From: a virus
Length of the DNA stretch: 64,000 nucleotides
Direction: 5' to 3' (one strand)
Virus record (IMG/VR): IMGVR_UViG_3300035698_017588
Span: 31,002 to 95,001 of that record
The first letter of the stretch is position 1; each line of letters starts with the position of its first letter. The position numbers and the translations under genes were made by a program. Of this stretch, positions 2,943 to 44,141 are shown in pieces. The notes below the pieces were generated by a model. That model saw only the letters and a list, made by a program, of their open reading frames with translations. It searched no databases and had not been told where the DNA came from.

Positions 2943-3564
2943 AGCTTATGATCTTATCGATATTTTGAATGAGTAGAGGAACGTCCGAGTCCTCAATCTC
3001 TAACACATCGAGAAGTTCATTAAAAGGATCAAATGTGACAGACTCCATTTCCTGAGTAATCAGATAAATCTTGTCACCATATTCCTTATCCCCAACATAC
3101 TTAGCCCTAGGTTGGTACCTATCAAGTGTCATGCGAGAAGCACGGGCTGACCTCTCTCGAATCAATGGATTAGCCACTATTTTGGCTACAAACTCTTTTA
3201 TCTTGTCGAATGGACGGAGTTCGACCCAAAACAGTTGCACAAATCTTTCAGCTGTCTCTGGGTCAGATAAGGATTTAATCAACCTCTTAACGAAGTCTTT
3301 GAAATACCGTTTCGATTTCGAAGAATAACCAGCATTGTAGCCATTCTCATAAGCCAAAGAACAAGCTTTGAGAGTAGAAAGAGAAGCTTCGCCCCTAGTT
3401 GCTTCCGGAAGCCAATATTCAGGAGCAATTATGTTGAGTTGTTTGAATTCGGAATCGAAGATTTTAATGTCCCAGATATCGAAAATATCAAGATAATAAA
3501 CCGAGTTACCTATCTTGATAACAACCACTTTATCTTTTGAACACAGAAATTCAAACTTCGCCAT
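2926..3564 (-). CDS. Hypothetical protein
   Basis: 212-aa ORF abutting the upstream actin-like gene. Confidence 0.65.
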   Translation of the reverse strand: MAKFEFLCSKDKVVVIKIGNSVYYLDIFDIWDIKIFDSEFKQLNIIAPEYWLPEATRGEASLSTLKACSLAYENGYNAGYSSKSKRYFKDFVKRLIKSLSDPETAERFVQLFWVELRPFDKIKEFVAKIVANPLIRERSARASRMTLDRYQPRAKYVGDKEYGDKIYLITQEMESVTFDPFNELLDVLEIEDSDVPLLIQNIDKIISFRDSK

Positions 3565-4850
3565 TAGAACATTTCAGCAGCTTTCAAGCATCCTCGTGCC
3601 ACAGTGAAGAGTGGACTTTTGCAAAGGATGACTTTATTAATCTCGAATGGCACTTCGAGTTCTTTGATCAATTTGATGCATCGATCATTGAATCCGGCAG
3701 GGCTGGCGGTGCCTCCTGCCATGTAGAGGTTGACACCTTCTTCGATTCTGGCTTCATTCTCGTTCTCTTTGAATCCTTCGATGATACCGGTAAGAACATT
3801 ATTAATGAGAATATCATAATGTAACACAATATCCATGCCAAGCCGGTCATCAGGCTCTTTGCCGGGAGTGAGATTAACAGACATTTTACGTTTCGACACA
3901 GTAGTCGGAGTCTCTTTGGATTTCTTCCGGCTATCGGCATTGAATCCATGTCGTTGTGCTGTTTCATAATCAATCCAATCTCCGGAACCAACCCAGCAAA
4001 AGCTGAATATTTCTAGACCGTACTTGACATAGCTGACAGTAACGGTACCAGCACCCCAACTAATACCAATCCCCGTGCCATCGTCTGAGGAATCCAACAC
4101 AATCGCGTGTGATTCCTTGATCGTATGCCGTTCGATATTGGACTTAGTTTCATAACTATCCAAGATGACATTGACTACACGAGTATGGTAATCCAGATTG
4201 ATATCTTTATTAATCGCTTTGGCGGTCGTACAGTAACACAGCTTGACACCATCACCGAATTTGCCGATGTCGTCTTCAGCCGTCTGCAACAAGCCAGTGA
4301 CAATCGTTGAGAGGATCGTCATAGCTTCTTCGTCAGCCGCAACACCGCCCTCAGCCATGGGACGCCGAAGATAATCGTTTTTGGCATAAGCGAATTCTTC
4401 TGCGTCTTTGCCGAGAATGATTGCTTGACCGTCTAGCTCGATCCAACGTGCCGGGCGTTTGGTCCCGTCAGATCTGACCTTGTTGGGATCATCGAGCATA
4501 TTCTTCAAGAATGGAGTGACACGCTCGAAAGGCCAATAACCGTTAACCTCACTGAGGTAGCCGATTTCGCCGTTCTCTTCCTTAAAGGCAAGAACGATAT
4601 TACGGGTTCCGAGGTCGAGTCCTAAGTATTCCATTTTCATTCTCTTTGTTCTACAAATTTCGCCAAGCCGAAACACCCTTGGTTTCTTGGCAACCTTATT
4701 TACTACCGAAGCAATGCGGGTATGCCCACGAACGATATCGATCTTGGACAGTGCGGGCTTGGTAGGTTTAGGAGCAAGAGGGGTATCAGCGATGACAGGG
4801 ATTGGACGCTTTACAGTGTCCGACAATATTCTATTAGGTTCACTCGCCAC
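3564..4850 (-). CDS. Actin-like ATPase (MreB/ParM/MamK superfamily); true start may be ATG at 4640
   Basis: Phosphate-1 GLDLGTRN, RRPMAEGG, connect-1 ESHA, phosphate-2 ISWGAGT, adenosine MAGGT, connect-2 VARG. Confidence 0.85.
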   Translation of the reverse strand: MASEPNRILSDTVKRPIPVIADTPLAPKPTKPALSKIDIVRGHTRIASVVNKVAKKPRVFRLGEICRTKRMKMEYLGLDLGTRNIVLAFKEENGEIGYLSEVNGYWPFERVTPFLKNMLDDPNKVRSDGTKRPARWIELDGQAIILGKDAEEFAYAKNDYLRRPMAEGGVAADEEAMTILSTIVTGLLQTAEDDIGKFGDGVKLCYCTTAKAINKDINLDYHTRVVNVILDSYETKSNIERHTIKESHAIVLDSSDDGTGIGISWGAGTVTVSYVKYGLEIFSFCWVGSGDWIDYETAQRHGFNADSRKKSKETPTTVSKRKMSVNLTPGKEPDDRLGMDIVLHYDILINNVLTGIIEGFKENENEARIEEGVNLYMAGGTASPAGFNDRCIKLIKELEVPFEINKVILCKSPLFTVARGCLKAAEMF

Positions 4851-5106
4851 TCTTTGCCCTTGAACCGAAGCTAGTCTTGGGTGCTTTCTTCATCATCGAA
4901 GCAGGATCGGGTAATGGAACTTCCTGTTTCTTACCGTAGCCATTTTCCTCTCTTGTTGGAAAATCCAACGTCTCCACATTGCCCTTATAGACTGTGGGAG
5001 TCTTGGGTGCTTCAACATTAATATTGATGACGGATTCCTTCTTCGAAAACACCCATGCCCAATAATTTGCTGAAACAAGAAAAAGGATCATCCAGACAAT
5101 TGACAT
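4840..5106 (-). CDS. Small putative membrane-anchored protein
   Basis: Hydrophobic N-terminus followed by a Pro/Lys-rich tail; overlaps both neighbours. Confidence 0.55.
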   Translation of the reverse strand: MSIVWMILFLVSANYWAWVFSKKESVININVEAPKTPTVYKGNVETLDFPTREENGYGKKQEVPLPDPASMMKKAPKTSFGSRAKSGE

Positions 5107-6221
5107 ACATCACCCAAGATCTTGAAGGAAATACCACGATCAGTGCAATGCTCTATGATCCTAGTCATAAAAGTCTGACGTTTAATGGATTCAGAATTAT
5201 CGCCAGCTGCGACCAAAGCACTGAACACACTATTAGAATTGACCAGGATAGACTTTGGAGAGCACGACACCAAGATCTCAATGGCAGTCAGCATATTATT
5301 GGAAGAGACAGAAAAGGGCGGTGCGAAATTGATATTCGACGTGAACTGCTTAACTGCGAACGTCCCAACCGGACCCAAAGACGGAGTGAACAAAGGTCCC
5401 GGACTAGTATGGTCAAGCAAGACTATCTGTGCGAATGTTCGAGACATATCGAATTCCGTGATCATCGCACCCGGCAAAGCGAAATAAAAATCCGCGTCGA
5501 TATCGGGGTCCAAAGCAAAAGTCAAATAATTATACTGACAAAATTGATAATCATTCGAATAAGAGTCAGTCAGCAATACATCATTACCACGGACCTTATC
5601 AAAAAGTTTAATAAACCCGTCGCGGTTTGAATTGTGAACTCCGGTCATTGAACCACGAGATTGTGTAACAACGATCTCGTCTTTTTCAGTAGACAACAAG
5701 TAGTCTAAAGATTGGCGTGAATAATTCGACGACAATGAAGCCCTAACTGTTGGCAACGCTTCTCGGAATTTAACAGATGCGAGCCACCCTTCCAAGACTG
5801 AAACATCATATGACTTAGGGTGCAGCAGTAAACTCAATTCTAAAAACAAGTCGGTGATGTTAGTACACCGATGCAATAATCGTGCCAACGTGCCCTTATG
5901 AGCTATTAAACCGAACGGGATAAAATCCGGCTTAACATCGACATTCGTCAAAACCGGTTGAGTCTTCAAATTAGCTTGGAGAGCAACGTGGTTAATCTTC
6001 TTGCCGAATGGGTTCTGGATTTTAGAACTAAATGGCAAGATCTGAGGAACATACATTGCTTTCACATTTGTAGTATCAAAATCAGCCGGTGGTTCCAAGC
6101 ACTGATACGACAAGTCTGCAATCATTACCCATTCTGTTGGAGATTTCCGGACTTTATCAAAGAGCCCAGAAATAGACAATCCATCAGAAAACTTGATACG
6201 ATGTAATTCTTGATATTTCAT
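5088..6221 (-). CDS. Hypothetical protein
   Basis: 377-aa ORF in a co-oriented run. Confidence 0.7.
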   Translation of the reverse strand: MKYQELHRIKFSDGLSISGLFDKVRKSPTEWVMIADLSYQCLEPPADFDTTNVKAMYVPQILPFSSKIQNPFGKKINHVALQANLKTQPVLTNVDVKPDFIPFGLIAHKGTLARLLHRCTNITDLFLELSLLLHPKSYDVSVLEGWLASVKFREALPTVRASLSSNYSRQSLDYLLSTEKDEIVVTQSRGSMTGVHNSNRDGFIKLFDKVRGNDVLLTDSYSNDYQFCQYNYLTFALDPDIDADFYFALPGAMITEFDMSRTFAQIVLLDHTSPGPLFTPSLGPVGTFAVKQFTSNINFAPPFSVSSNNMLTAIEILVSCSPKSILVNSNSVFSALVAAGDNSESIKRQTFMTRIIEHCTDRGISFKILGDVCQLSG

Positions 6222-39876: not shown

Positions 39877-40327
39877 TCGCTATACTGGCAAAAGAGAAGC
39901 GTGCGAGCAAATCCAAGATGGCATTATTTGTGATGTATGCGGCGTCGAACTCAACTACGAGTTCGACGACGAAAACTCTCCCCATGTCTCTTTCGAAATC
40001 CACGATCTAACAGGCTGTGAACCATATTATCACGAAGATCGTCTAAAGTTCACAGCAAAAGAAGCTTTTGAACTATTCGAAATCGATTGGGATGACGATA
40101 TTGAAATGGACAATTATGTGACCTTCAATGATAACCCATTCGTTTATTGTCGATCGCGACCATGTCTTGAAGATGTCCTTAAGGACACTTTATTCGCTCA
40201 AGCACCATTCGAGGACGAAGTCTGGCTTCAAAACGCAATGATGGAAGCCAGATTAAAAATGATTGAACGTGTTTTAAGGCAGAAACTTTTTACTCCCGAG
40301 CGTTTGGGAATCAGTTTCGAAGATTAG
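39806..40327 (+). CDS. Hypothetical acidic protein
   Basis: 173-aa ORF; likely start at MKLYKS. Confidence 0.55.
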   Translation: MLQSASHWVYFGSMKLYKSTPVFDRYTGKREACEQIQDGIICDVCGVELNYEFDDENSPHVSFEIHDLTGCEPYYHEDRLKFTAKEAFELFEIDWDDDIEMDNYVTFNDNPFVYCRSRPCLEDVLKDTLFAQAPFEDEVWLQNAMMEARLKMIERVLRQKLFTPERLGISFED

Positions 40328-40396
40328 GGCCTACAGTCGGGTGACTTAACCGGTCTTCAAAACCGGAAATGGTGGATTCGAGTTCCACTAGGCCCT
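40327..40396 (+). tRNA. Atypical tRNA, anticodon UCA (opal-reading), Trp-like anticodon arm, reduced D arm
   Basis: Acceptor GGGCCTA/TAGGCCC; anticodon arm CCGGT-CTTCAAA-ACCGG; T arm GTGGA-TTCGAGT-TCCAC; D arm only AGTC-GGGT-GACT. Confidence 0.7.
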
Positions 40397-40399
40397 CTC

Positions 40400-40472
40400 G
40401 TCCCTGTAGCTCAATTGGTAGAGCGGTGGATTTCAAATCTACTGGTTGTCGGTTCAATTCCGACCAGGGACA
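40400..40472 (+). tRNA. tRNA, anticodon UCA (opal suppressor)
   Basis: Canonical cloverleaf: GTCCCTG/CAGGGAC, GCTC-AATTGGTA-GAGC, GTGGA-TTTCAAA-TCTAC, GTCGG-TTCAATT-CCGAC; short variable loop. Confidence 0.9.
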
Positions 40473-40486
40473 CTACACAAAGGAAT

Positions 40487-40768
40487 ATGATGGGAAATTC
40501 ATTAAATGCCATCTCAGCCGATGAAGACAAATACATCCACCGATGTAAGATACTCAATGTCAAACCCCAAGAAGACAAAGACCCATACTCTCTTCATGCA
40601 GAATGGGTAGACGAAACATTCTGGGCGAAAACCCAAGATTCTTGGGAAGAATATCAAAAATCTGGACAGATAAAGAAGCTGGATCGAGCTATTAAAGTAA
40701 AACAAGCGATCGTTGACCAACAACAAACAGAACTTAATGTACTGATTGAGTATCGCAAGACAATGTGA
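40487..40768 (+). CDS. Hypothetical protein
   Basis: ATG at 40487 preceded by AAGGA; the listed 40415 start lies inside the tRNA. Confidence 0.6.
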   Translation: MMGNSLNAISADEDKYIHRCKILNVKPQEDKDPYSLHAEWVDETFWAKTQDSWEEYQKSGQIKKLDRAIKVKQAIVDQQQTELNVLIEYRKTM

Positions 40769-40814
40769 TCCCAATAGCCGCAAAATTATCTTAACTAATT
40801 TGCGGGGAATCCAA

Positions 40815-41543
40815 ATGTCATACGTTCTAGAACTATCCGGCGTCGTTTCTTATGACGACAATACCGAAAAATCGTTTCTTGCAGTAGACGACATCAAAGA
40901 TGATATCGTCCTTCAAGACCAACAGGCTTTCCTTGACGTAAGCCAACGATTCCGAACCCTCATCGCGGCCAATGGCGGCGACCTACACACCCCACAAAAT
41001 CTACCACGATCTGGTAAAACCATACGGGAAACAGTGGTTAGTATAAGGTGTCTATACACCATTGGCCAAGATAACTACGAATTCACCATTACCAGTAACG
41101 ATCCAAACGGATTCATCACTACTGGTAACGGCAATTGGATGCAATTTTGGAATCTCTACGGAGAGCAAGCCAATCAACTATTCTTCGCAGCATGGGGTGG
41201 TGCTTCCGCCTACAATGTTGACTTTGCCGACAGAACATACTTTACGTTCACGAACAACTCAATGGAAGACGGACCATTAATTGTCGGTGCTTACCTCGAC
41301 AACATCGGTCCAACACTTTACCAAGAATTCCTCATCGATCCGAACAAACAAGCAGCCTTCTTGTTTGATTTTGCGTCTCAAAGTAATTTTTGGGTTCACG
41401 CTCGACGAGCTGGAGACCCGGCCCCATGGCCCGCAGCATTAAACACGCAAATCAGCATAATTGGCATTGCTGGTGCAGAACTCGACGTTACCGGCAGCTA
41501 CCAAGCATTCAACTTCGGATTGAATAGTATCGTTGCTAGTTAA
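40815..41543 (+). CDS. Hypothetical protein, tandem paralogue 1
   Basis: Begins MSYVLELSGVVSYDDNTEKSFLAVDDIKDDIVLQDQQAF. Confidence 0.75.
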   Translation: MSYVLELSGVVSYDDNTEKSFLAVDDIKDDIVLQDQQAFLDVSQRFRTLIAANGGDLHTPQNLPRSGKTIRETVVSIRCLYTIGQDNYEFTITSNDPNGFITTGNGNWMQFWNLYGEQANQLFFAAWGGASAYNVDFADRTYFTFTNNSMEDGPLIVGAYLDNIGPTLYQEFLIDPNKQAAFLFDFASQSNFWVHARRAGDPAPWPAALNTQISIIGIAGAELDVTGSYQAFNFGLNSIVAS

Positions 41544-41630
41544 CATCATACTATCTTTCGCCCAAAATCAAGTCGCAATCTTTGTCTAATCCGACAGCAA
41601 AGTTAAATCGACTAATTGCGGGGGATCACA

Positions 41631-42353
41631 ATGTCATACGTTCTTGAATTCAGTGGTGTCGTCTCTTACACCGACAACACCGAAAAATCTTTTCTAGCAG
41701 TCGATGATATCAAGGACGACATAGTCCTTCAAGACCAGCAAGCATTTGCCGATGTGGGTAGAGTGTTCAGAATCCTGGCAATTGAAGCGGGCGGAGAGCT
41801 TGCACTCCCTCGCACCATCCCACAATCTGGAAAGACGGTCAAGAATACCAACGCCAAAATCAACTGTTGGTATACTATTGGAGAAGAAAGCTTCGAATTC
41901 TCCATAATAGAGTCGGACACTACTGGCCTGACTACCATTGGTGACGGAAACATCGCACAATTCATGAGTAATTATGGAAATGGGGCGAACAGCTTCGTCA
42001 ACAGAATCTACAAAGGTGCCACATTATATGGCACAAAATTCACAAATCCAGCTCTTGTGTTCATCAGAAATGACGTTTTTGCTCCCGCCCAACATATAGT
42101 TGGATTTTATTCCCAAGTCAACCCGACTTTGGAATTCATGTTGGAAAAGATTATCGACCCAAGCAACGAAGCCGCGATAATTATTAACAGAGATGGGCTA
42201 GTAGCTCCTTTTGTTCATGCGAGAATTGTTGGAAACCCACCCCCACAGCCAATCGACATCAACACCCAAGTCAATTTCACTAGTATAGCACAAGTGGATT
42301 TGACGATCAATTCGGTCCAGAATTTTAGTCTGACCAACGGGGTGCTTGCATAA
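41631..42353 (+). CDS. Hypothetical protein, tandem paralogue 2
   Basis: Begins MSYVLEFSGVVSYTDNTEKSFLAVDDIKDDIVLQDQQAF. Confidence 0.75.
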   Translation: MSYVLEFSGVVSYTDNTEKSFLAVDDIKDDIVLQDQQAFADVGRVFRILAIEAGGELALPRTIPQSGKTVKNTNAKINCWYTIGEESFEFSIIESDTTGLTTIGDGNIAQFMSNYGNGANSFVNRIYKGATLYGTKFTNPALVFIRNDVFAPAQHIVGFYSQVNPTLEFMLEKIIDPSNEAAIIINRDGLVAPFVHARIVGNPPPQPIDINTQVNFTSIAQVDLTINSVQNFSLTNGVLA

Positions 42354-42414: not shown

Positions 42415-42726
42415 ATGTTGTGAGCATATTGCTACGTAATAGTCACCTCGGATCTAACTGATCCACAAAAGGCAGTGCAAGGAATGCACGCGGCCATTGA
42501 ATCGGCCAGATCAGGATTGATCACAGGACCACACCCTAATTTGGTGTTTTGTATGGTCCCCGACTCTGAATCTCTAAGTCAGCTGTCGAAAAAACTCAAA
42601 ATCCGTGAAGTCGATCATCGTATATTCGTAGAACCGGATCTCGACGACAAGCCTACTGCTATAGCCACACGAACCGTAAGTGGCAAAGAGCGTAAACTAT
42701 TCTCAAATTTCCCGTTGGTGAGATAA
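42415..42726 (+). CDS. Peptidyl-tRNA hydrolase (PTH2/PTRHD1-like) with in-frame TGA at codon 3
   Basis: ATG TTG TGA then AYCYVIVTSDLTDPQKAVQGMHAAIES..LVFCMV..IFVEPDL..TAIAT..FSNFPL; the YVIV..DL strand lies upstream of the listed GTG start. Confidence 0.75.
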
Positions 42727-42728
42727 TT

Positions 42729-43028
42729 ATGTCAGCACGAGAACCCAGAGACGTAAAAGAATTTCGAACCGAAGCCGAATTAGAAGAAGCTGCGAGCGGG
42801 AATGACGTCCGAAAACTCGATTGGGAAGGAGAAGGATATTATGCCATCTACCAATATGGTCAACGATGTCCACGAGGATGCTGCTATGATAGCGTCTACG
42901 AGGCCAGACCAATAGCCGACCATATTTCCGATCTGGAAGCACATATCGAAGATCTTTCTTCCGACCTAAGTCATTACAAAGATCTCAACCACAAATACGA
43001 CCTACTAGCCAAGTACACAAAGGAATAA
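42729..43028 (+). CDS. Hypothetical protein
   Basis: 99-aa ORF between the two ATG-TTG-TGA genes. Confidence 0.6.
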   Translation: MSAREPRDVKEFRTEAELEEAASGNDVRKLDWEGEGYYAIYQYGQRCPRGCCYDSVYEARPIADHISDLEAHIEDLSSDLSHYKDLNHKYDLLAKYTKE

Positions 43029-43030
43029 TC

Positions 43031-43564
43031 ATGTTGTGATTACCGCGAGCCCCGCCCTGGAAACCGATTCTCCGACAATTTTTACGATTAATCAATTTTC
43101 AAGGCACAGACATTATGACTACTCAAACAATTGAAACCCACACTTCAAAATGGGGTTTCCACCCCTGCACACGCGAAACTTGCCAAAAACTCAAGGAAGC
43201 TCATCTCTTGTTGCTCCGTGCTTTACGAGACATCAAAAGACACCAACGATGGAGCAACAAACTTGAGCCCGAAGGAGAAGAACCAAAGCACCCTTCTTTC
43301 CTGGTAAAAGACGGGCGTTTCTATCGCAGTGAAAAAGCAAAAGAAGCAAAGAACATGACTTATGGTATTACGCTTGGGACAAGCTATTGGCCCGTAGGAT
43401 TTAGATGTGAAATCCACTACTACGAACACATTCTATCCCAATACCGAAATGCCAGGAGGCCACAGGCCACAGAAGAAGAGGTAGAGCCTCTTAATTTACC
43501 AGATGACTTATGGCTTATCATCGAAAAGCTCAAAGGCTTTTATAAAATCAGCCCTGCATCCTAG
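43031..43564 (+). CDS. Hypothetical protein (ATG 43115) with in-frame leader M-L-opal-LPRAPPW
   Basis: AAGGAATAATC ATG TTG TGA TTA CCG CGA GCC CCG CCC TGG..., open and in frame (84 nt) with the 149-aa ORF. Confidence 0.65.
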
Positions 43565-44066
43565 TAATGTTGTTCTGCGGAGTATTAAGTTCTTCGGGAG
43601 TGGGCTGATAACGATGTTGCATAAGGTATGCATCCTCATGATTGTTATCATAAAAGTCCCGAAGAACAGAAATGGCTTTGAATCCTAAGTTCTTGAAAAA
43701 GAGCTGAGCATTCAAATTAGTCTCACGAATTTCAAGTGCAATTCTGTTTCGACGTTCGTGAGACAATTTGCCAAGCAATTTGCCAAGCAATTGGGACCCA
43801 ATTGTCTTTCGTTGTTCAGATGGTGTGACAGCGAAGTTCAAAATGTGCAATCGATCCTTGTGTAGTTCATAGATCATATATCCCACAATTTCATCATCAA
43901 GCTTTGCGACAATTCCGATACAATTTCGTTGACGCAAGCATCTAATGAAGTCATCTTCGATCCAGGCATGTTGAAAACATTTTGATTCAATATCCAAGAC
44001 TTCGGGCATATCTCTGCGGATCATCCAACGGATGTGGACGTTCGGAGTTTTACAATCCTTTGCCAT
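43548..44066 (-). CDS. rimI: Ribosomal-protein-alanine N-acetyltransferase, planctomycete-like
   Basis: VHIRWMIRRDMPEVLDIE..CLRQRNCIG..LHILNFAV..EIRETNLNAQLFF..EDAYLM. Confidence 0.9.
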   Translation of the reverse strand: MAKDCKTPNVHIRWMIRRDMPEVLDIESKCFQHAWIEDDFIRCLRQRNCIGIVAKLDDEIVGYMIYELHKDRLHILNFAVTPSEQRKTIGSQLLGKLLGKLSHERRNRIALEIRETNLNAQLFFKNLGFKAISVLRDFYDNNHEDAYLMQHRYQPTPEELNTPQNNITRMQG

Positions 44067-44141
44067 CTTATTATCGCCAATAAATGGGAGCAACTTGAGT
44101 ACGTCGTATCTACTCAATAAGTTCATAGCGTAATTTCCATT

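What the first reader, a model, noticed from the sequence alone, without database searches (positions are those of the whole stretch)
40327..40472. Two tandem, unrelated tRNAs that both read UGA
Seen: both anticodon loops are YTTCAAA (anticodon UCA). The first has the classic tRNA-Trp arm CCGGT..ACCGG with a shrunken D arm; the second is a canonical cloverleaf. Neither has the long variable arm of tRNA-Sec. Many genes here end at TGA, so the code is not globally reassigned. Inference: dedicated opal suppressors for conditional readthrough.
Basis: partly seen in the sequence, partly recalled or inferred. Interest (0 to 1): 0.75.

Follow-up and report, generated by a model that had tools for sequence, protein, structure and literature searches.

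The report
Phage UGA-reading tRNAs unlocking stop-gated genes
A large phage that otherwise uses the normal genetic code carries two tRNAs that read the stop codon UGA, and 2-2.7 kb downstream it keeps a UGA as the third codon of a small tRNA-hydrolase-like gene and of a ribosome-stalling leader, so these genes are probably made only when the phage's own tRNAs override the stop.

Summary
ARAGORN finds only two tRNAs in the whole 95-kb phage contig. They lie in tandem and both have anticodon UCA. tRNA2 is a canonical cloverleaf. tRNA1 has the E. coli tRNA-Trp anticodon arm with C34 changed to U, and a shrunken D arm. Neither is tRNA-Sec.

The visible code is standard. TGA ends 41 of 106 ORFs, 15 of them as ATGA overlaps.

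The "conditional readthrough" idea is partly right, but the targets are gates at gene starts, not gene ends.
- A PTH2-like gene starts ATG TTG TGA, and no other start precedes its conserved first strand.
- A leader 616 bp further on reads M-L-UGA-L-P-R-A-P-P. RAPP is a known ribosome-arrest motif.

An independent metagenome contig with a 72% identical protein has a tRNA(UCA) 63 nt upstream of ATG TGT TGA. A third relative has ATG ACT TAT TGA. Sister lineages use TAG with an adjacent tRNA(CUA): 12 amber/CUA pairs, 2 opal/UCA pairs, no mismatch.

So these tRNAs look like the key of an opal version of a suppressor-tRNA-gated Pth2-like module. This scan noted that module before on other DNA, and I found no paper describing it.

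Nothing is experimental and the inserted amino acid is unknown. The contig is about 27% of the genome, so wider late-gene recoding is not excluded.

The parts
40327..40396 (+). tRNA1, anticodon UCA. It has a 7-bp acceptor stem, a 4-bp D stem with a 4-nt loop, an anticodon arm ACCGGT-CTTCAAA-ACCGG, a TTCGAGT T loop and discriminator U73. No CCA is encoded.
   Evidence: ARAGORN. A cloverleaf is the MFE fold. The arm is identical to E. coli trpT except C34->T. There is no Rfam tRNA hit, and the Sec model scores 41.4 bits against a gathering score of 47. No relative was found in IMG/VR.
40400..40472 (+). tRNA2, anticodon UCA. It is a canonical 73-nt cloverleaf with G1-C72, U2-A71, C3-G70 and discriminator A73. 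No CCA is encoded.
   Evidence: ARAGORN. Rfam tRNA 72.4 bits. MFE cloverleaf with z -4.7. It shares its architecture with the L037 tRNA(UCA) and with CUA tRNAs of the module, and 17 of 21 pairs covary. Its nearest neighbours among 193 tRNAs are module CUA tRNAs.
40487..42353 (+). Three ORFs of unknown function (40487-40768, 40746-41543, 41616-42353) lying between the tRNAs and the gated gene. They are absent from relative L037, where the tRNA lies 63 nt upstream of the gated gene.
   Evidence: No Pfam or PHROG hits. Synteny with L037. The 13-mer ACACAAAGGAATA flanks this block, at 40475 and 43015.
42415..42726 (+). PTH2-like hydrolase gene starting ATG TTG TGA, with the opal codon at 42421-42423 as codon 3. 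The next in-frame ATG/GTG/TTG is the GTG at 42475, about 14 codons after the start of the conserved first strand YCYVIV.
   Evidence: phrog_3668 matches from residue 6. All homologues need this first strand. L037 has ATG TGT TGA and L038 has ATG ACT TAT TGA. The family profile matches solved Pth2 2zv3 at E 1.7e-7, and 23 of 30 members hit Pfam PTH2.
42729..43028 (+). 99-aa ORF starting 2 nt after the stop of the PTH2-like gene. It may be translationally coupled to that gene. Function unknown.
   Evidence: ORF list. No Pfam or PHROG hit.
43031..43060 (+). Leader reading ATG TTG TGA TTA CCG CGA GCC CCG CCC TGG, that is M-L-opal-L-P-R-A-P-P-W. The opal codon is at 43037-43039 and RAPP is at 43046-43057. 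In this window the leader runs in frame into the next ORF.
   Evidence: Sequence. Conserved as M-L-opal-L-P-R-G-P-P in L038 and M-F-opal-L-A-R-P-P-stop in L037. L058 has an amber version, M-K-amber-G-N-R-A-P-P. RAPP and RGPP are robust arrest motifs (PMC12992588, PMC10951233).
43115..43564 (+). 149-aa protein of unknown function (WGFHPC motif) downstream of the leader. It is a conserved partner of the PTH2-like gene in L037, L038 and L010.
   Evidence: tblastn against the loci. No Pfam or PHROG hit. No Atlas look-alike.

Best explanation
The two tRNAs are phage-encoded UGA-decoding tRNAs. They act as the key of a small regulon that is locked by stop codons.

Two translation starts on the same strand, 2.0 and 2.7 kb downstream, have UGA as their third codon.
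- The first belongs to a PTH2-like (peptidyl-tRNA-hydrolase-like) gene.
- The second belongs to a short leader that then encodes the ribosome-arrest motif R-A-P-P, in front of a conserved 149-aa protein.

Without the phage tRNAs, ribosomes would end after a dipeptide. With them, the hydrolase-like protein is made and ribosomes reach the arrest motif. In relatives, the codons of that motif pair with the Shine-Dalgarno sequence of the next gene, so a stalled ribosome would free it.

Shown from sequence:
- both tRNAs and their anticodons;
- the gates, and the lack of any alternative start;
- conservation of the gates in relatives;
- the match between gate codon and anticodon across lineages.

Inferred:
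- that the tRNAs are expressed and charged;
- that they insert Trp, which I think likely because a U34 tRNA also reads UGG, so a non-Trp identity would miscode;
- that suppression is weak or favoured near the start, which would spare the phage's many normal UGA stops;
- that RAPP stalls the ribosome here.

Why the phage couples a hydrolase-like enzyme to its own suppressor is unknown. The enzyme might clear peptidyl-tRNA made by readthrough, or it might act as negative feedback on the suppressor.
For: - These are the only two tRNAs in the 95 kb, and both have anticodon UCA. tRNA2 scores 72.4 bits against Rfam tRNA.
- The PTH2-like gene starts ATG TTG TGA. Homology begins at residue 6, before any other in-frame start.
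- L037 (72% identical protein, syntenic) has a tRNA(UCA) 63 nt upstream of AGGAG-N8-ATG TGT TGA. Codons 4-12 differ from the window by synonymous changes (TGC/TGT, GTC/GTG, CTA/CTT).
- L038 (49% identical) has AAGGAG-ATG ACT TAT TGA.
- In a clade with 100/99 support, 9 of the 10 PTH2-like genes carry such a gate: 3 opal, 5 amber, 1 ochre. The start of the tenth (L049) could not be read.
- Gate type and the anticodon of the tRNA in the same locus agree: amber/CUA 12, opal/UCA 2, mismatches 0. Fisher's exact p is about 0.011 by my arithmetic.
- The leader M-L-UGA-L-P-R-A-P-P is conserved in L038 and L037 and recurs as an amber version in L058.
- The PP codons pair with the downstream Shine-Dalgarno sequence in L038 (z -4.5) and L058 (z -3.6).
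- The tRNA2 type keeps its cloverleaf through compensatory changes in 17 of 21 pairs.
- The code is otherwise standard.
Against: - Nothing is experimental. Transcription, CCA addition, charging and decoding are all unknown.
- TGA ends 39% of the ORFs on this contig, so an efficient suppressor should be costly.
- tRNA1 fails the Rfam tRNA model and has no known relative, so it could be decaying.
- The window's own PTH2-like protein is below Pfam's PTH2 cut-off (12.5 against 23 bits), and the catalytic Lys of canonical Pth2 is not evident.
- In the window and in L037, the pairing between leader and Shine-Dalgarno sequence is no better than in shuffles.
- The opal lineage is a single clade, so opal/UCA covariation counts as one evolutionary event.
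It may be TGA called under code 4.
- Only about 27% of the genome is in hand.
Confidence: 0.68

Rival explanations
1. The tRNAs serve a genome-wide TGA-to-Trp recoding (code 4) of late structural and lysis genes, which lie in the unseen part of this jumbo phage. This would match the recoded gut phages in which replication genes stay in the standard code. On this reading, the two early gates are only the visible edge of that recoding.
For: CheckV puts the contig at 27% complete, and it holds mostly replication and nucleotide-metabolism genes. In recoded phages, the suppressor tRNAs and replication genes are written in the standard code while late genes are recoded (bioRxiv 10.1101/2021.08.26.457843).
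Against: TGA is the second commonest stop here (41 of 106) rather than depleted, unlike the relatives of recoded phages described in that paper. A 2368-aa ORF with a stretch resembling tail fibre has no in-frame TGA. The gates sit at codons 3-4, always directly after the ATG, which is not how recoded sense codons are distributed. The amber counterpart of the module occurs in large phage contigs, and the published standard-code jumbo phage XacN1 has CUA suppressors for which no readthrough targets were found (PMC5852040). No RF1 or TrpRS gene is present.
Confidence: 0.12
2. The tRNAs are mainly replacement tRNA-Trp genes. A U34-C35-A36 anticodon also reads UGG, so they could supply Trp decoding when the host tRNA-Trp is depleted or cleaved by a defence nuclease. 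Their changed anticodon would escape that nuclease. UGA reading would then be a side effect.
For: tRNA1 carries the exact E. coli tRNA-Trp anticodon arm apart from position 34. By wobble rules (general knowledge), a U34 tRNA reads both A- and G-ending codons. Phage tRNAs that evade anticodon nucleases are a known theme (general knowledge, not tested here).
Against: This does not explain the conserved in-frame TGA gates, or their switch to TAG where the tRNA is CUA. A CUA tRNA cannot read any sense codon. Both tRNAs lack the bacterial Trp discriminator G73 and A1-U72.
Confidence: 0.1
3. The host uses a code in which UGA is a sense codon (code 4 or 25). The phage would simply carry host-like tRNAs.
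For: The two UCA tRNAs, and ARAGORN's default labels.
Against: TGA ends 41 of 106 ORFs, 15 of them as ATGA overlaps. Code 4 does not improve coding density. Apart from the two gates, no ORF pair joined across a TGA has convincing coding support on both sides.
Confidence: 0.02
4. One or both are non-functional relics, or tRNA-Sec-like genes.
For: tRNA1 has a reduced D arm, fails the Rfam tRNA model and scores best against the Sec model (41.4 bits).
Against: The Sec score is below the gathering score, and there is no long variable arm and no 8- or 9-bp acceptor stem. tRNA2 is canonical and is conserved with compensatory changes in L037. tRNA1 still folds as a cloverleaf as its MFE structure.
Confidence: 0.08

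Closest known systems
Stop-codon-recoded phages with their own suppressor tRNAs (code 4 Agate and Jade phages, code 15 crAss-like and Lak phages; Borges et al., bioRxiv 10.1101/2021.08.26.457843)
   Same: A phage of a standard-code host carries a suppressor tRNA. Expression of some phage genes would depend on that tRNA. The tRNA and the replication genes are written in the standard code.
   Different: Here TGA remains a frequent true stop (39%). Only two start-proximal codons are affected in 95 kb. The targets are a hydrolase-like gene and a leader, not structural or lysis genes. The gate position (codons 2-8) is conserved across lineages.
Suppressor-tRNA-gated Pth2-like gene module, noted earlier by this scan on other DNA (e1-933198, e1-5642810, e1-5750493 and others; unpublished AI notes)
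   Same: A PTH2-like gene with an early in-frame stop lies next to a tRNA whose anticodon reads that stop. The module is found in large phages with an otherwise standard code. Stop and anticodon change together.
   Different: This is the rarer opal form. It has two unrelated tRNAs(UCA), three ORFs inserted between key and lock, and a second lock in an RAPP arrest leader.
prfB (RF2) autoregulation through an in-frame UGA near the start of the gene
   Same: An early in-frame UGA makes synthesis of a translation-termination-related protein depend on how UGA is being decoded in the cell.
   Different: prfB needs a +1 frameshift and senses the concentration of its own product. Here the codon is read in frame by a dedicated tRNA, and any feedback by the hydrolase-like protein is only conjecture.
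RAPP/RGPP ribosome-arrest leaders (ApdA, ApdP, ApcA; PMC7897499, PMC10951233, PMC12992588)
   Same: A short upstream ORF contains R-A-P-P or R-G-P-P just before a regulated gene. In L038 and L058 the motif's codons pair with the downstream Shine-Dalgarno sequence.
   Different: The known leaders are longer secretory or membrane peptides that are released by protein-localisation machinery. Here the motif is 3 codons after a stop codon, so only suppression would let the ribosome reach it.
CUA suppressor tRNAs of standard-code jumbo phages such as Xanthomonas phage XacN1 (PMC5852040), and PTH2 genes of jumbo phages (PMC7824862)
   Same: Large phages with the standard code carry suppressor tRNAs and an archaeo-eukaryotic-type PTH2 gene.
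   Different: Those papers report the two features separately and found no target for the suppressors. In XacN1 the homologous domain is the C-terminal part of a 279-aa ORF without a gate.

Membership tests
Canonical elongator tRNA (Rfam RF00005) | Score at or above the gathering score and a full cloverleaf | tested here: met
   tRNA2 scores 72.4 bits against a gathering score of 29 and matches model positions 1-71. Its MFE fold is a cloverleaf.
Canonical elongator tRNA (Rfam RF00005) | The same test applied to tRNA1 | tested here: not met
   There is no RF00005 hit even at E 10. ARAGORN does accept it, and its MFE fold is a cloverleaf with a 4-bp D stem and 4-nt D loop. It is therefore a non-canonical tRNA-like gene.
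tRNA-Sec (RF01852) | Long variable arm, extended acceptor stem, and a score above the gathering score | tested here: not met
   41.4 bits against a gathering score of 47. The variable arm is absent (0 of 16 model positions) and the acceptor stem has 7 bp.
Bacterial tRNA-Trp | Anticodon arm of tRNA-Trp | tested here: met
   tRNA1 is identical to E. coli trpT over the 18-nt arm, except C34->T. tRNA2 is not.
Bacterial tRNA-Trp | Discriminator G73 and A1-U72 (E. coli TrpRS identity elements, from general knowledge) | tested here: not met
   tRNA1 has U73 and G1-C72. tRNA2 has A73 and G1-C72.
Genome-wide code 4 (TGA=Trp) phage | Many genes with in-frame TGA, and better coding density under code 4 | tested here: not met
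   Density is 0.863 under code 11 and 0.870 under TGA-as-sense. Only two supported in-frame TGAs were found. Only 27% of the genome has been seen.
Genome-wide code 4 (TGA=Trp) phage | TGA not used, or rarely used, as a terminator | tested here: not met
   41 of 106 ORFs end in TGA, 15 of them as ATGA overlaps.
Suppressor-tRNA-gated Pth2-like module (scan-internal, unpublished) | A stop codon 2-8 codons after a ribosome-binding site and ATG, with no other start before the conserved first strand | tested here: met
   ATG TTG TGA at 42415. The homology begins at residue 6, while the next in-frame start is residue 21.
Suppressor-tRNA-gated Pth2-like module (scan-internal, unpublished) | A tRNA on the same strand nearby whose anticodon reads the gate codon, with covariation across relatives | tested here: met
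   UCA tRNAs lie 1.9 kb upstream here and 63 nt upstream in L037. Counts are amber/CUA 12, opal/UCA 2, mismatches 0.
PTH2 peptidyl-tRNA hydrolase (PF01981) | Pfam gathering score | tested here: not met
   The window protein scores 12.5 bits against a cut-off of 23. However, 23 of 30 family members match PTH2, the best at E 1.8e-10.
PTH2 peptidyl-tRNA hydrolase (PF01981) | Full-length similarity to solved Pth2 structures | tested here: met
   The family profile matches 2zv3_A at E 1.7e-7 (profile 3-99 against chain 2-114). It also matches 24bt, 1rzw and 1q7s.
PTH2 peptidyl-tRNA hydrolase (PF01981) | Catalytic Asp and Lys of archaeal Pth2 (residue roles from general knowledge) | tested here: inconclusive
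   The invariant D of EPD aligns with the D of the DAG motif. The G-K Lys region carries a 2-residue deletion and has no conserved Lys.
RAPP-type arrest leader | An R-A-P-P or R-G-P-P motif in a short ORF upstream of a gene | tested here: met
   Window RAPP, L038 RGPP and L058 RAPP. L037 has only RPP followed by a stop.
RAPP-type arrest leader | Ribosome stalling at the motif that regulates the downstream gene | not testable with these tools
   The only evidence is predicted pairing of the PP codons with the downstream Shine-Dalgarno sequence in L038 and L058.

The most novel reading that the evidence does not exclude
The module could be a self-contained translational circuit. The phage's own stop-reading tRNAs would switch on a hydrolase-like enzyme that acts back on those tRNAs, or on the peptidyl-tRNAs they create. 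That would hold suppression at a low set-point. A second sensor, a stop-gated RAPP arrest leader, would report suppressor activity to further genes. If so, phages would run a private tRNA-based signalling channel on top of the standard code. That would also explain the long-puzzling suppressor tRNAs of standard-code jumbo phages.
Probability: 0.18. Interest if true: 0.88.

Novelty: new variant of a known kind. Interest (0 to 1): 0.72.

Why it matters
Suppressor tRNAs are annotated in many large phages that use the standard code, and their targets have been unknown. The XacN1 authors, for example, looked for amber readthrough targets and found none (PMC5852040).

This locus gives such tRNAs a concrete, testable target. 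The target is a stop codon two or three codons after the start of a conserved hydrolase-like gene and of an arrest-peptide leader. The stop and the anticodon change together across lineages.

If this is confirmed:
- Part of the annotated "tRNA-Sup", "tRNA-Pyl" and "tRNA-SeC" calls in phages would be explained.
- Gene callers would need to expect these hidden genes, which they currently truncate or miss.
- It would be a natural example of a gene switch operated by an orthogonal tRNA, which is of interest for synthetic biology.

The opal form matters for a further reason. UGA is also a common terminator in the same genome, so the system must discriminate by context or work at low efficiency.

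Tried and rejected
- Global code tests: coding density under codes 11, TGA-sense, TAG-sense and TAA-sense showed no signal for recoding.
- Codon-bias scoring of every ORF pair joined across a TGA gave no convincing extra cases. The three in-frame minus-strand ORFs at window 3564-6221 were not supported.
- A scan for RBS-ATG-(1-8 codons)-stop-ORF gave 6 TGA, 2 TAG and 1 TAA hits. All TGA hits except 43031 lie inside or at the ends of other genes.
- Close relatives: none in INPHARED by megablast. IMG/VR had no tandem UCA pair and no relative of the 265-aa or 149-aa proteins. My first tRNA pattern was mis-typed.
- A 94% identical relative contig (L072) ends just before the tRNA region.
The codon behind the W of homologue P0005, and the contexts of P0003-P0008, could therefore not be read.
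- The contig has no RF-1, class Ib aaRS or CCA-adding enzyme.
- The promoter and terminator scan was uninformative.
- The Atlas search gave nothing for the 149-aa protein.
- blastn of tRNA1 against E. coli genomes found nothing, so I aligned it to trpT directly instead.
- The +4 base after TGA does not separate the gates (G, T, A, C) from true stops (T in 21 of 41).
- Selenocysteine, host code 4/25 and assembly error were each considered and rejected, as set out under the rival explanations.
Full report
**What is there.** The window is bases 31002-95001 of a single 95,001-nt IMG/VR virus record. The record has no terminal repeats and its ends are cut inside ORFs. CheckV estimates it at 27% complete. 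The recognisable genes belong to replication and nucleotide metabolism: helicase, SbcCD-like nuclease, a PurZ-like adenylosuccinate synthetase, thymidylate-synthase-like and nucleotide-sugar enzymes. This is therefore a fragment of a large, probably jumbo, phage.

**The two tRNAs.** ARAGORN finds only two tRNA genes in the whole record. They are in tandem on the + strand at window 40327-40397 and 40400-40473, and both have anticodon UCA.
- tRNA2 is a textbook cloverleaf. It scores 72.4 bits against Rfam tRNA and its fold has z -4.7.
- tRNA1 is not canonical. It has a 4-bp D stem with a 4-nt loop and gets no Rfam tRNA hit. It scores 41.4 bits on the Sec model, below the gathering score of 47, and has no variable arm. 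A cloverleaf is still its minimum-energy fold.
- The anticodon arm of tRNA1 equals that of E. coli trpT except for C34->T.
- The discriminators are U73 (tRNA1) and A73 (tRNA2). Neither tRNA encodes CCA.

**The code of the phage.** TGA ends 41 of 106 greedy ORFs, and 15 of these are ATGA overlaps with the next start. Reading TGA as sense does not improve coding density. Codon-bias scoring of all TGA-joined ORF pairs gave no convincing fusions. The visible 95 kb is therefore written in the standard code. A host with code 4 or 25 is excluded in practice.

**The targets.** Two places on the same strand, 2.0 and 2.7 kb downstream of the tRNAs, share the 12-mer ATCATGTTGTGA.

*Target 1: the PTH2-like gene.*
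- At 42415 the reading ATG TTG TGA GCA TAT TGC TAC GTA ATA GTC... gives M-L-opal-A-Y-C-Y-V-I-V.
- The product matches phrog_3668 "hydrolase" from residue 6.
- A profile of 30 family members matches solved archaeal and eukaryotic Pth2 structures over its full length (2zv3, E 1.7e-7). Twenty-three of the 30 hit Pfam PTH2. The window's own protein is below the Pfam cut-off.
- Every homologue begins with the same first strand, (K/R)-L-Y-V-I-V-R-x-D-L.
- In the window, the first canonical in-frame start after the TGA lies about 14 codons beyond the start of that strand. The protein can therefore be made whole only by starting at the ATG and reading the UGA.

*Independent relatives with the same gate.*
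- Metagenome contig L037 (JACCDJ010116991.1) encodes a 72% identical protein and is syntenic with the window: metallopeptidase, the 143-aa ORF, tRNA, PTH2-like gene and the 149-aa ORF.
- L037 has a tRNA(UCA) ending 63 nt before AGGAG-N8-ATG TGT TGA ACA TAT TGT TAC.
- Codons after the gate differ from the window by synonymous changes, so this stretch is under protein-level selection.
- L038 (49% identical) has AAGGAG-ATG ACT TAT TGA.
- The L037 tRNA is of the tRNA2 type. It shares G1-C72, U2-A71, C3-G70, A73 and the D loop AATTGG, with compensatory changes in the acceptor, D and T stems.
- tRNA1 has no counterpart in L037.

*Sister lineages and covariation.*
- In a maximum-likelihood tree of 30 PTH2-like proteins, the three opal-gated genes fall in a clade with 100/99 support. 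The clade also holds five amber-gated genes, one ochre-gated gene and one gene (L049) whose start could not be read.
- The amber genes read, for example, M-T-H-TAG, M-D-A-TAG, M-R-TAG and M-S-TAG. Each follows a good Shine-Dalgarno sequence and has no other start.
- In most of these contigs a tRNA(CUA) lies 30-400 nt away.
- Over all 57 fetched loci I counted 12 distinct loci with an in-frame amber and a CUA-type tRNA in the same locus, 2 with opal and UCA, and no mismatch. By my own arithmetic, Fisher's exact p is about 0.011. The opal cases form one clade and so count as one event.
- Among 193 distinct tRNAs from these loci, four of the five nearest neighbours of tRNA2 are module CUA tRNAs.
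- Several amber genes carry a second TAG at a homologous internal position.

*Target 2: the leader.*
- At 43031 the window reads M-L-opal-L-P-R-A-P-P-W.
- L038 has M-L-opal-L-P-R-G-P-P, and L037 has M-F-opal-L-A-R-P-P-stop. In each case the leader sits in front of a homologue of the 149-aa protein.
- In the two relatives the leader is a separate small ORF in another frame. The in-frame continuation into the 149-aa ORF in the window is therefore probably incidental.
- L058 has an amber version, M-K-TAG-G-N-R-A-P-P, upstream of a different gene next to its PTH2-like gene and tRNA(CUA).
- RAPP and RGPP are the two most robust stand-alone ribosome-arrest motifs, and they are strongly avoided in bacterial proteomes (PMC12992588; structures in PMC10951233).
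- In L038 and L058 the Pro-Pro codons (CCUCC) pair with the Shine-Dalgarno sequence of the next gene in hairpins far more stable than shuffles (z -4.5 and -3.6). In the window and in L037 the predicted pairing is not significant.
- The inference is a translational attenuator that opens only when a ribosome gets past the stop and stalls on the motif.

**How it most likely works.** The tRNAs are transcribed with, or ahead of, the downstream genes. They are processed, given CCA by the host and charged by a host synthetase; no aaRS, release factor or CCA-adding enzyme is present on the contig. They then read UGA at codon 3 of the two starts.

The inserted residue is unknown. Trp is my favoured guess, for three reasons. 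A U34 anticodon also reads UGG, so any other identity would miscode Trp codons (wobble rules, general knowledge). tRNA1 carries a Trp anticodon arm. Homologue P0005 shows W at the gate position.

How the many ordinary UGA stops are spared is not shown. Weak suppression, or poor RF2 action on di- and tripeptidyl-tRNA close to the start (minigene literature, general knowledge), are possible reasons.

Why a Pth2-like enzyme is tied to its own suppressor is also open. It might clean up peptidyl-tRNA generated by readthrough. Alternatively, it might give negative feedback on the suppressor, in the manner of prfB.

**Rivals.**
- Late-gene code-4 recoding in the unseen 73% of the genome cannot be excluded. 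It fits poorly with the high use of TGA as a stop, with the fixed start-proximal position of the gates, and with a 2368-aa ORF resembling tail fibre that has no TGA.
- A replacement tRNA-Trp role does not explain the gates or their amber equivalents.
- Sec, host code 4/25 and assembly error are rejected.

**Relation to what is known.** Published work describes several pieces separately:
- phage suppressor tRNAs in recoded phages, and one standard-code relative that acquired a TGA suppressor (bioRxiv 10.1101/2021.08.26.457843);
- CUA suppressors without known targets in the standard-code jumbo phage XacN1 (PMC5852040);
- PTH2 genes in jumbo phages (PMC7824862).

Four full-text searches found no paper that links these features or describes start-proximal stop gates. 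That is a limited search, not proof of absence.

This scan itself has noted the amber form many times, and one opal form, on other DNA. Those are unchecked AI notes. I reached the module independently, before reading them. New here are the tandem pair of unrelated UCA tRNAs, the separation of key and lock by three inserted ORFs, and the opal-gated RAPP leader as a second lock.

**Verdict.** The best reading, at confidence about 0.68, is that the tRNAs are the key of an opal-gated Pth2-like and arrest-leader regulon in a standard-code jumbo phage. I class it as a new variant of a known kind (phage suppressor-tRNA-dependent gene expression), of high interest, and entirely untested at the bench.

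Noticed in passing
L012:10403-10662, L018:10348-10503, L046:527-597, L030:9849-9926, L013:5211-5451, L016:9736-9889, L021:9909-9984: Next to PTH2-like genes in other phages there are tRNAs with enlarged anticodon loops. Some have 8-nt loops holding CCUA or UCUA. Others have 9-nt loops (C/A)(G/C)UAAAGAA or CCUAAUGAC, which ARAGORN calls Phe(AAA) or Ile(AAU). They often come in tandem pairs, so a pair of odd tRNAs beside this gene is a recurring layout.
   Followed up: partly
L010:9959-10310, L019:9944-10300, L024:9980-10310, L053:9962-10280: Several amber-type PTH2-like genes carry a second in-frame TAG at a homologous internal position, after the first helix.
   Followed up: partly
window 40475-40487 and 43015-43027: The 13-mer ACACAAAGGAATA occurs exactly twice in the window (0.17 expected by chance). 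One copy is directly after tRNA2, in front of the first inserted ORF. The other is in front of the opal-gated leader. It may mark the recombination that put three ORFs between the tRNAs and the gated genes, or it may be a shared translation-initiation region.
   Followed up: partly
L038:966-1075 and L058:9585-9700: There are strong hairpins (z -4.5 and -3.6) in which the Pro-Pro codons of the stop-gated RGPP or RAPP leader pair with the Shine-Dalgarno sequence of the next gene. This looks like a translational attenuator that would open on suppression.
   Followed up: partly
L009:1990-2065 (IMGVR_UViG_3300024331_000152, 142.8 kb): Another phage tRNA(UCA) has the same Trp-type anticodon arm, U73 and an encoded CCA. 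It lies beside a tmRNA and a tRNA-Thr. I did not check whether that phage has opal gates.
   Followed up: no
window 43548-44126 (- strand): A GNAT acetyltransferase gene (Pfam Acetyltransf_1, E 4e-16) converges on the end of the gated 149-aa gene. GNAT toxins that acetylate aminoacyl-tRNA are counteracted by Pth in bacteria (general knowledge). A link here is pure speculation.
   Followed up: no
L070:967-1806 (Xanthomonas phage XacN1 ORF364) and L071:1018-1803 (Stenotrophomonas phage RAS14): In these cultured jumbo phages the PTH2-like domain is the C-terminal part of a protein of about 260-280 aa, and it has no stop gate. XacN1 nevertheless carries two CUA suppressor tRNAs whose targets its authors could not find.
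   Followed up: partly
L048:100-465: There is an ochre-gated member: AAGGAG-ATG CAT TAA followed by the conserved strand. The 1.4-kb contig holds no tRNA. L033 and L036 show tRNA(UUA) genes near PTH2-like genes.
   Followed up: no
window 3564-6221 (- strand): Three consecutive ORFs (377, 61 and 428 aa) lie in one frame, separated only by TGA codons. Codon-bias scoring did not support a fusion, and I did not test it by homology.
   Followed up: partly
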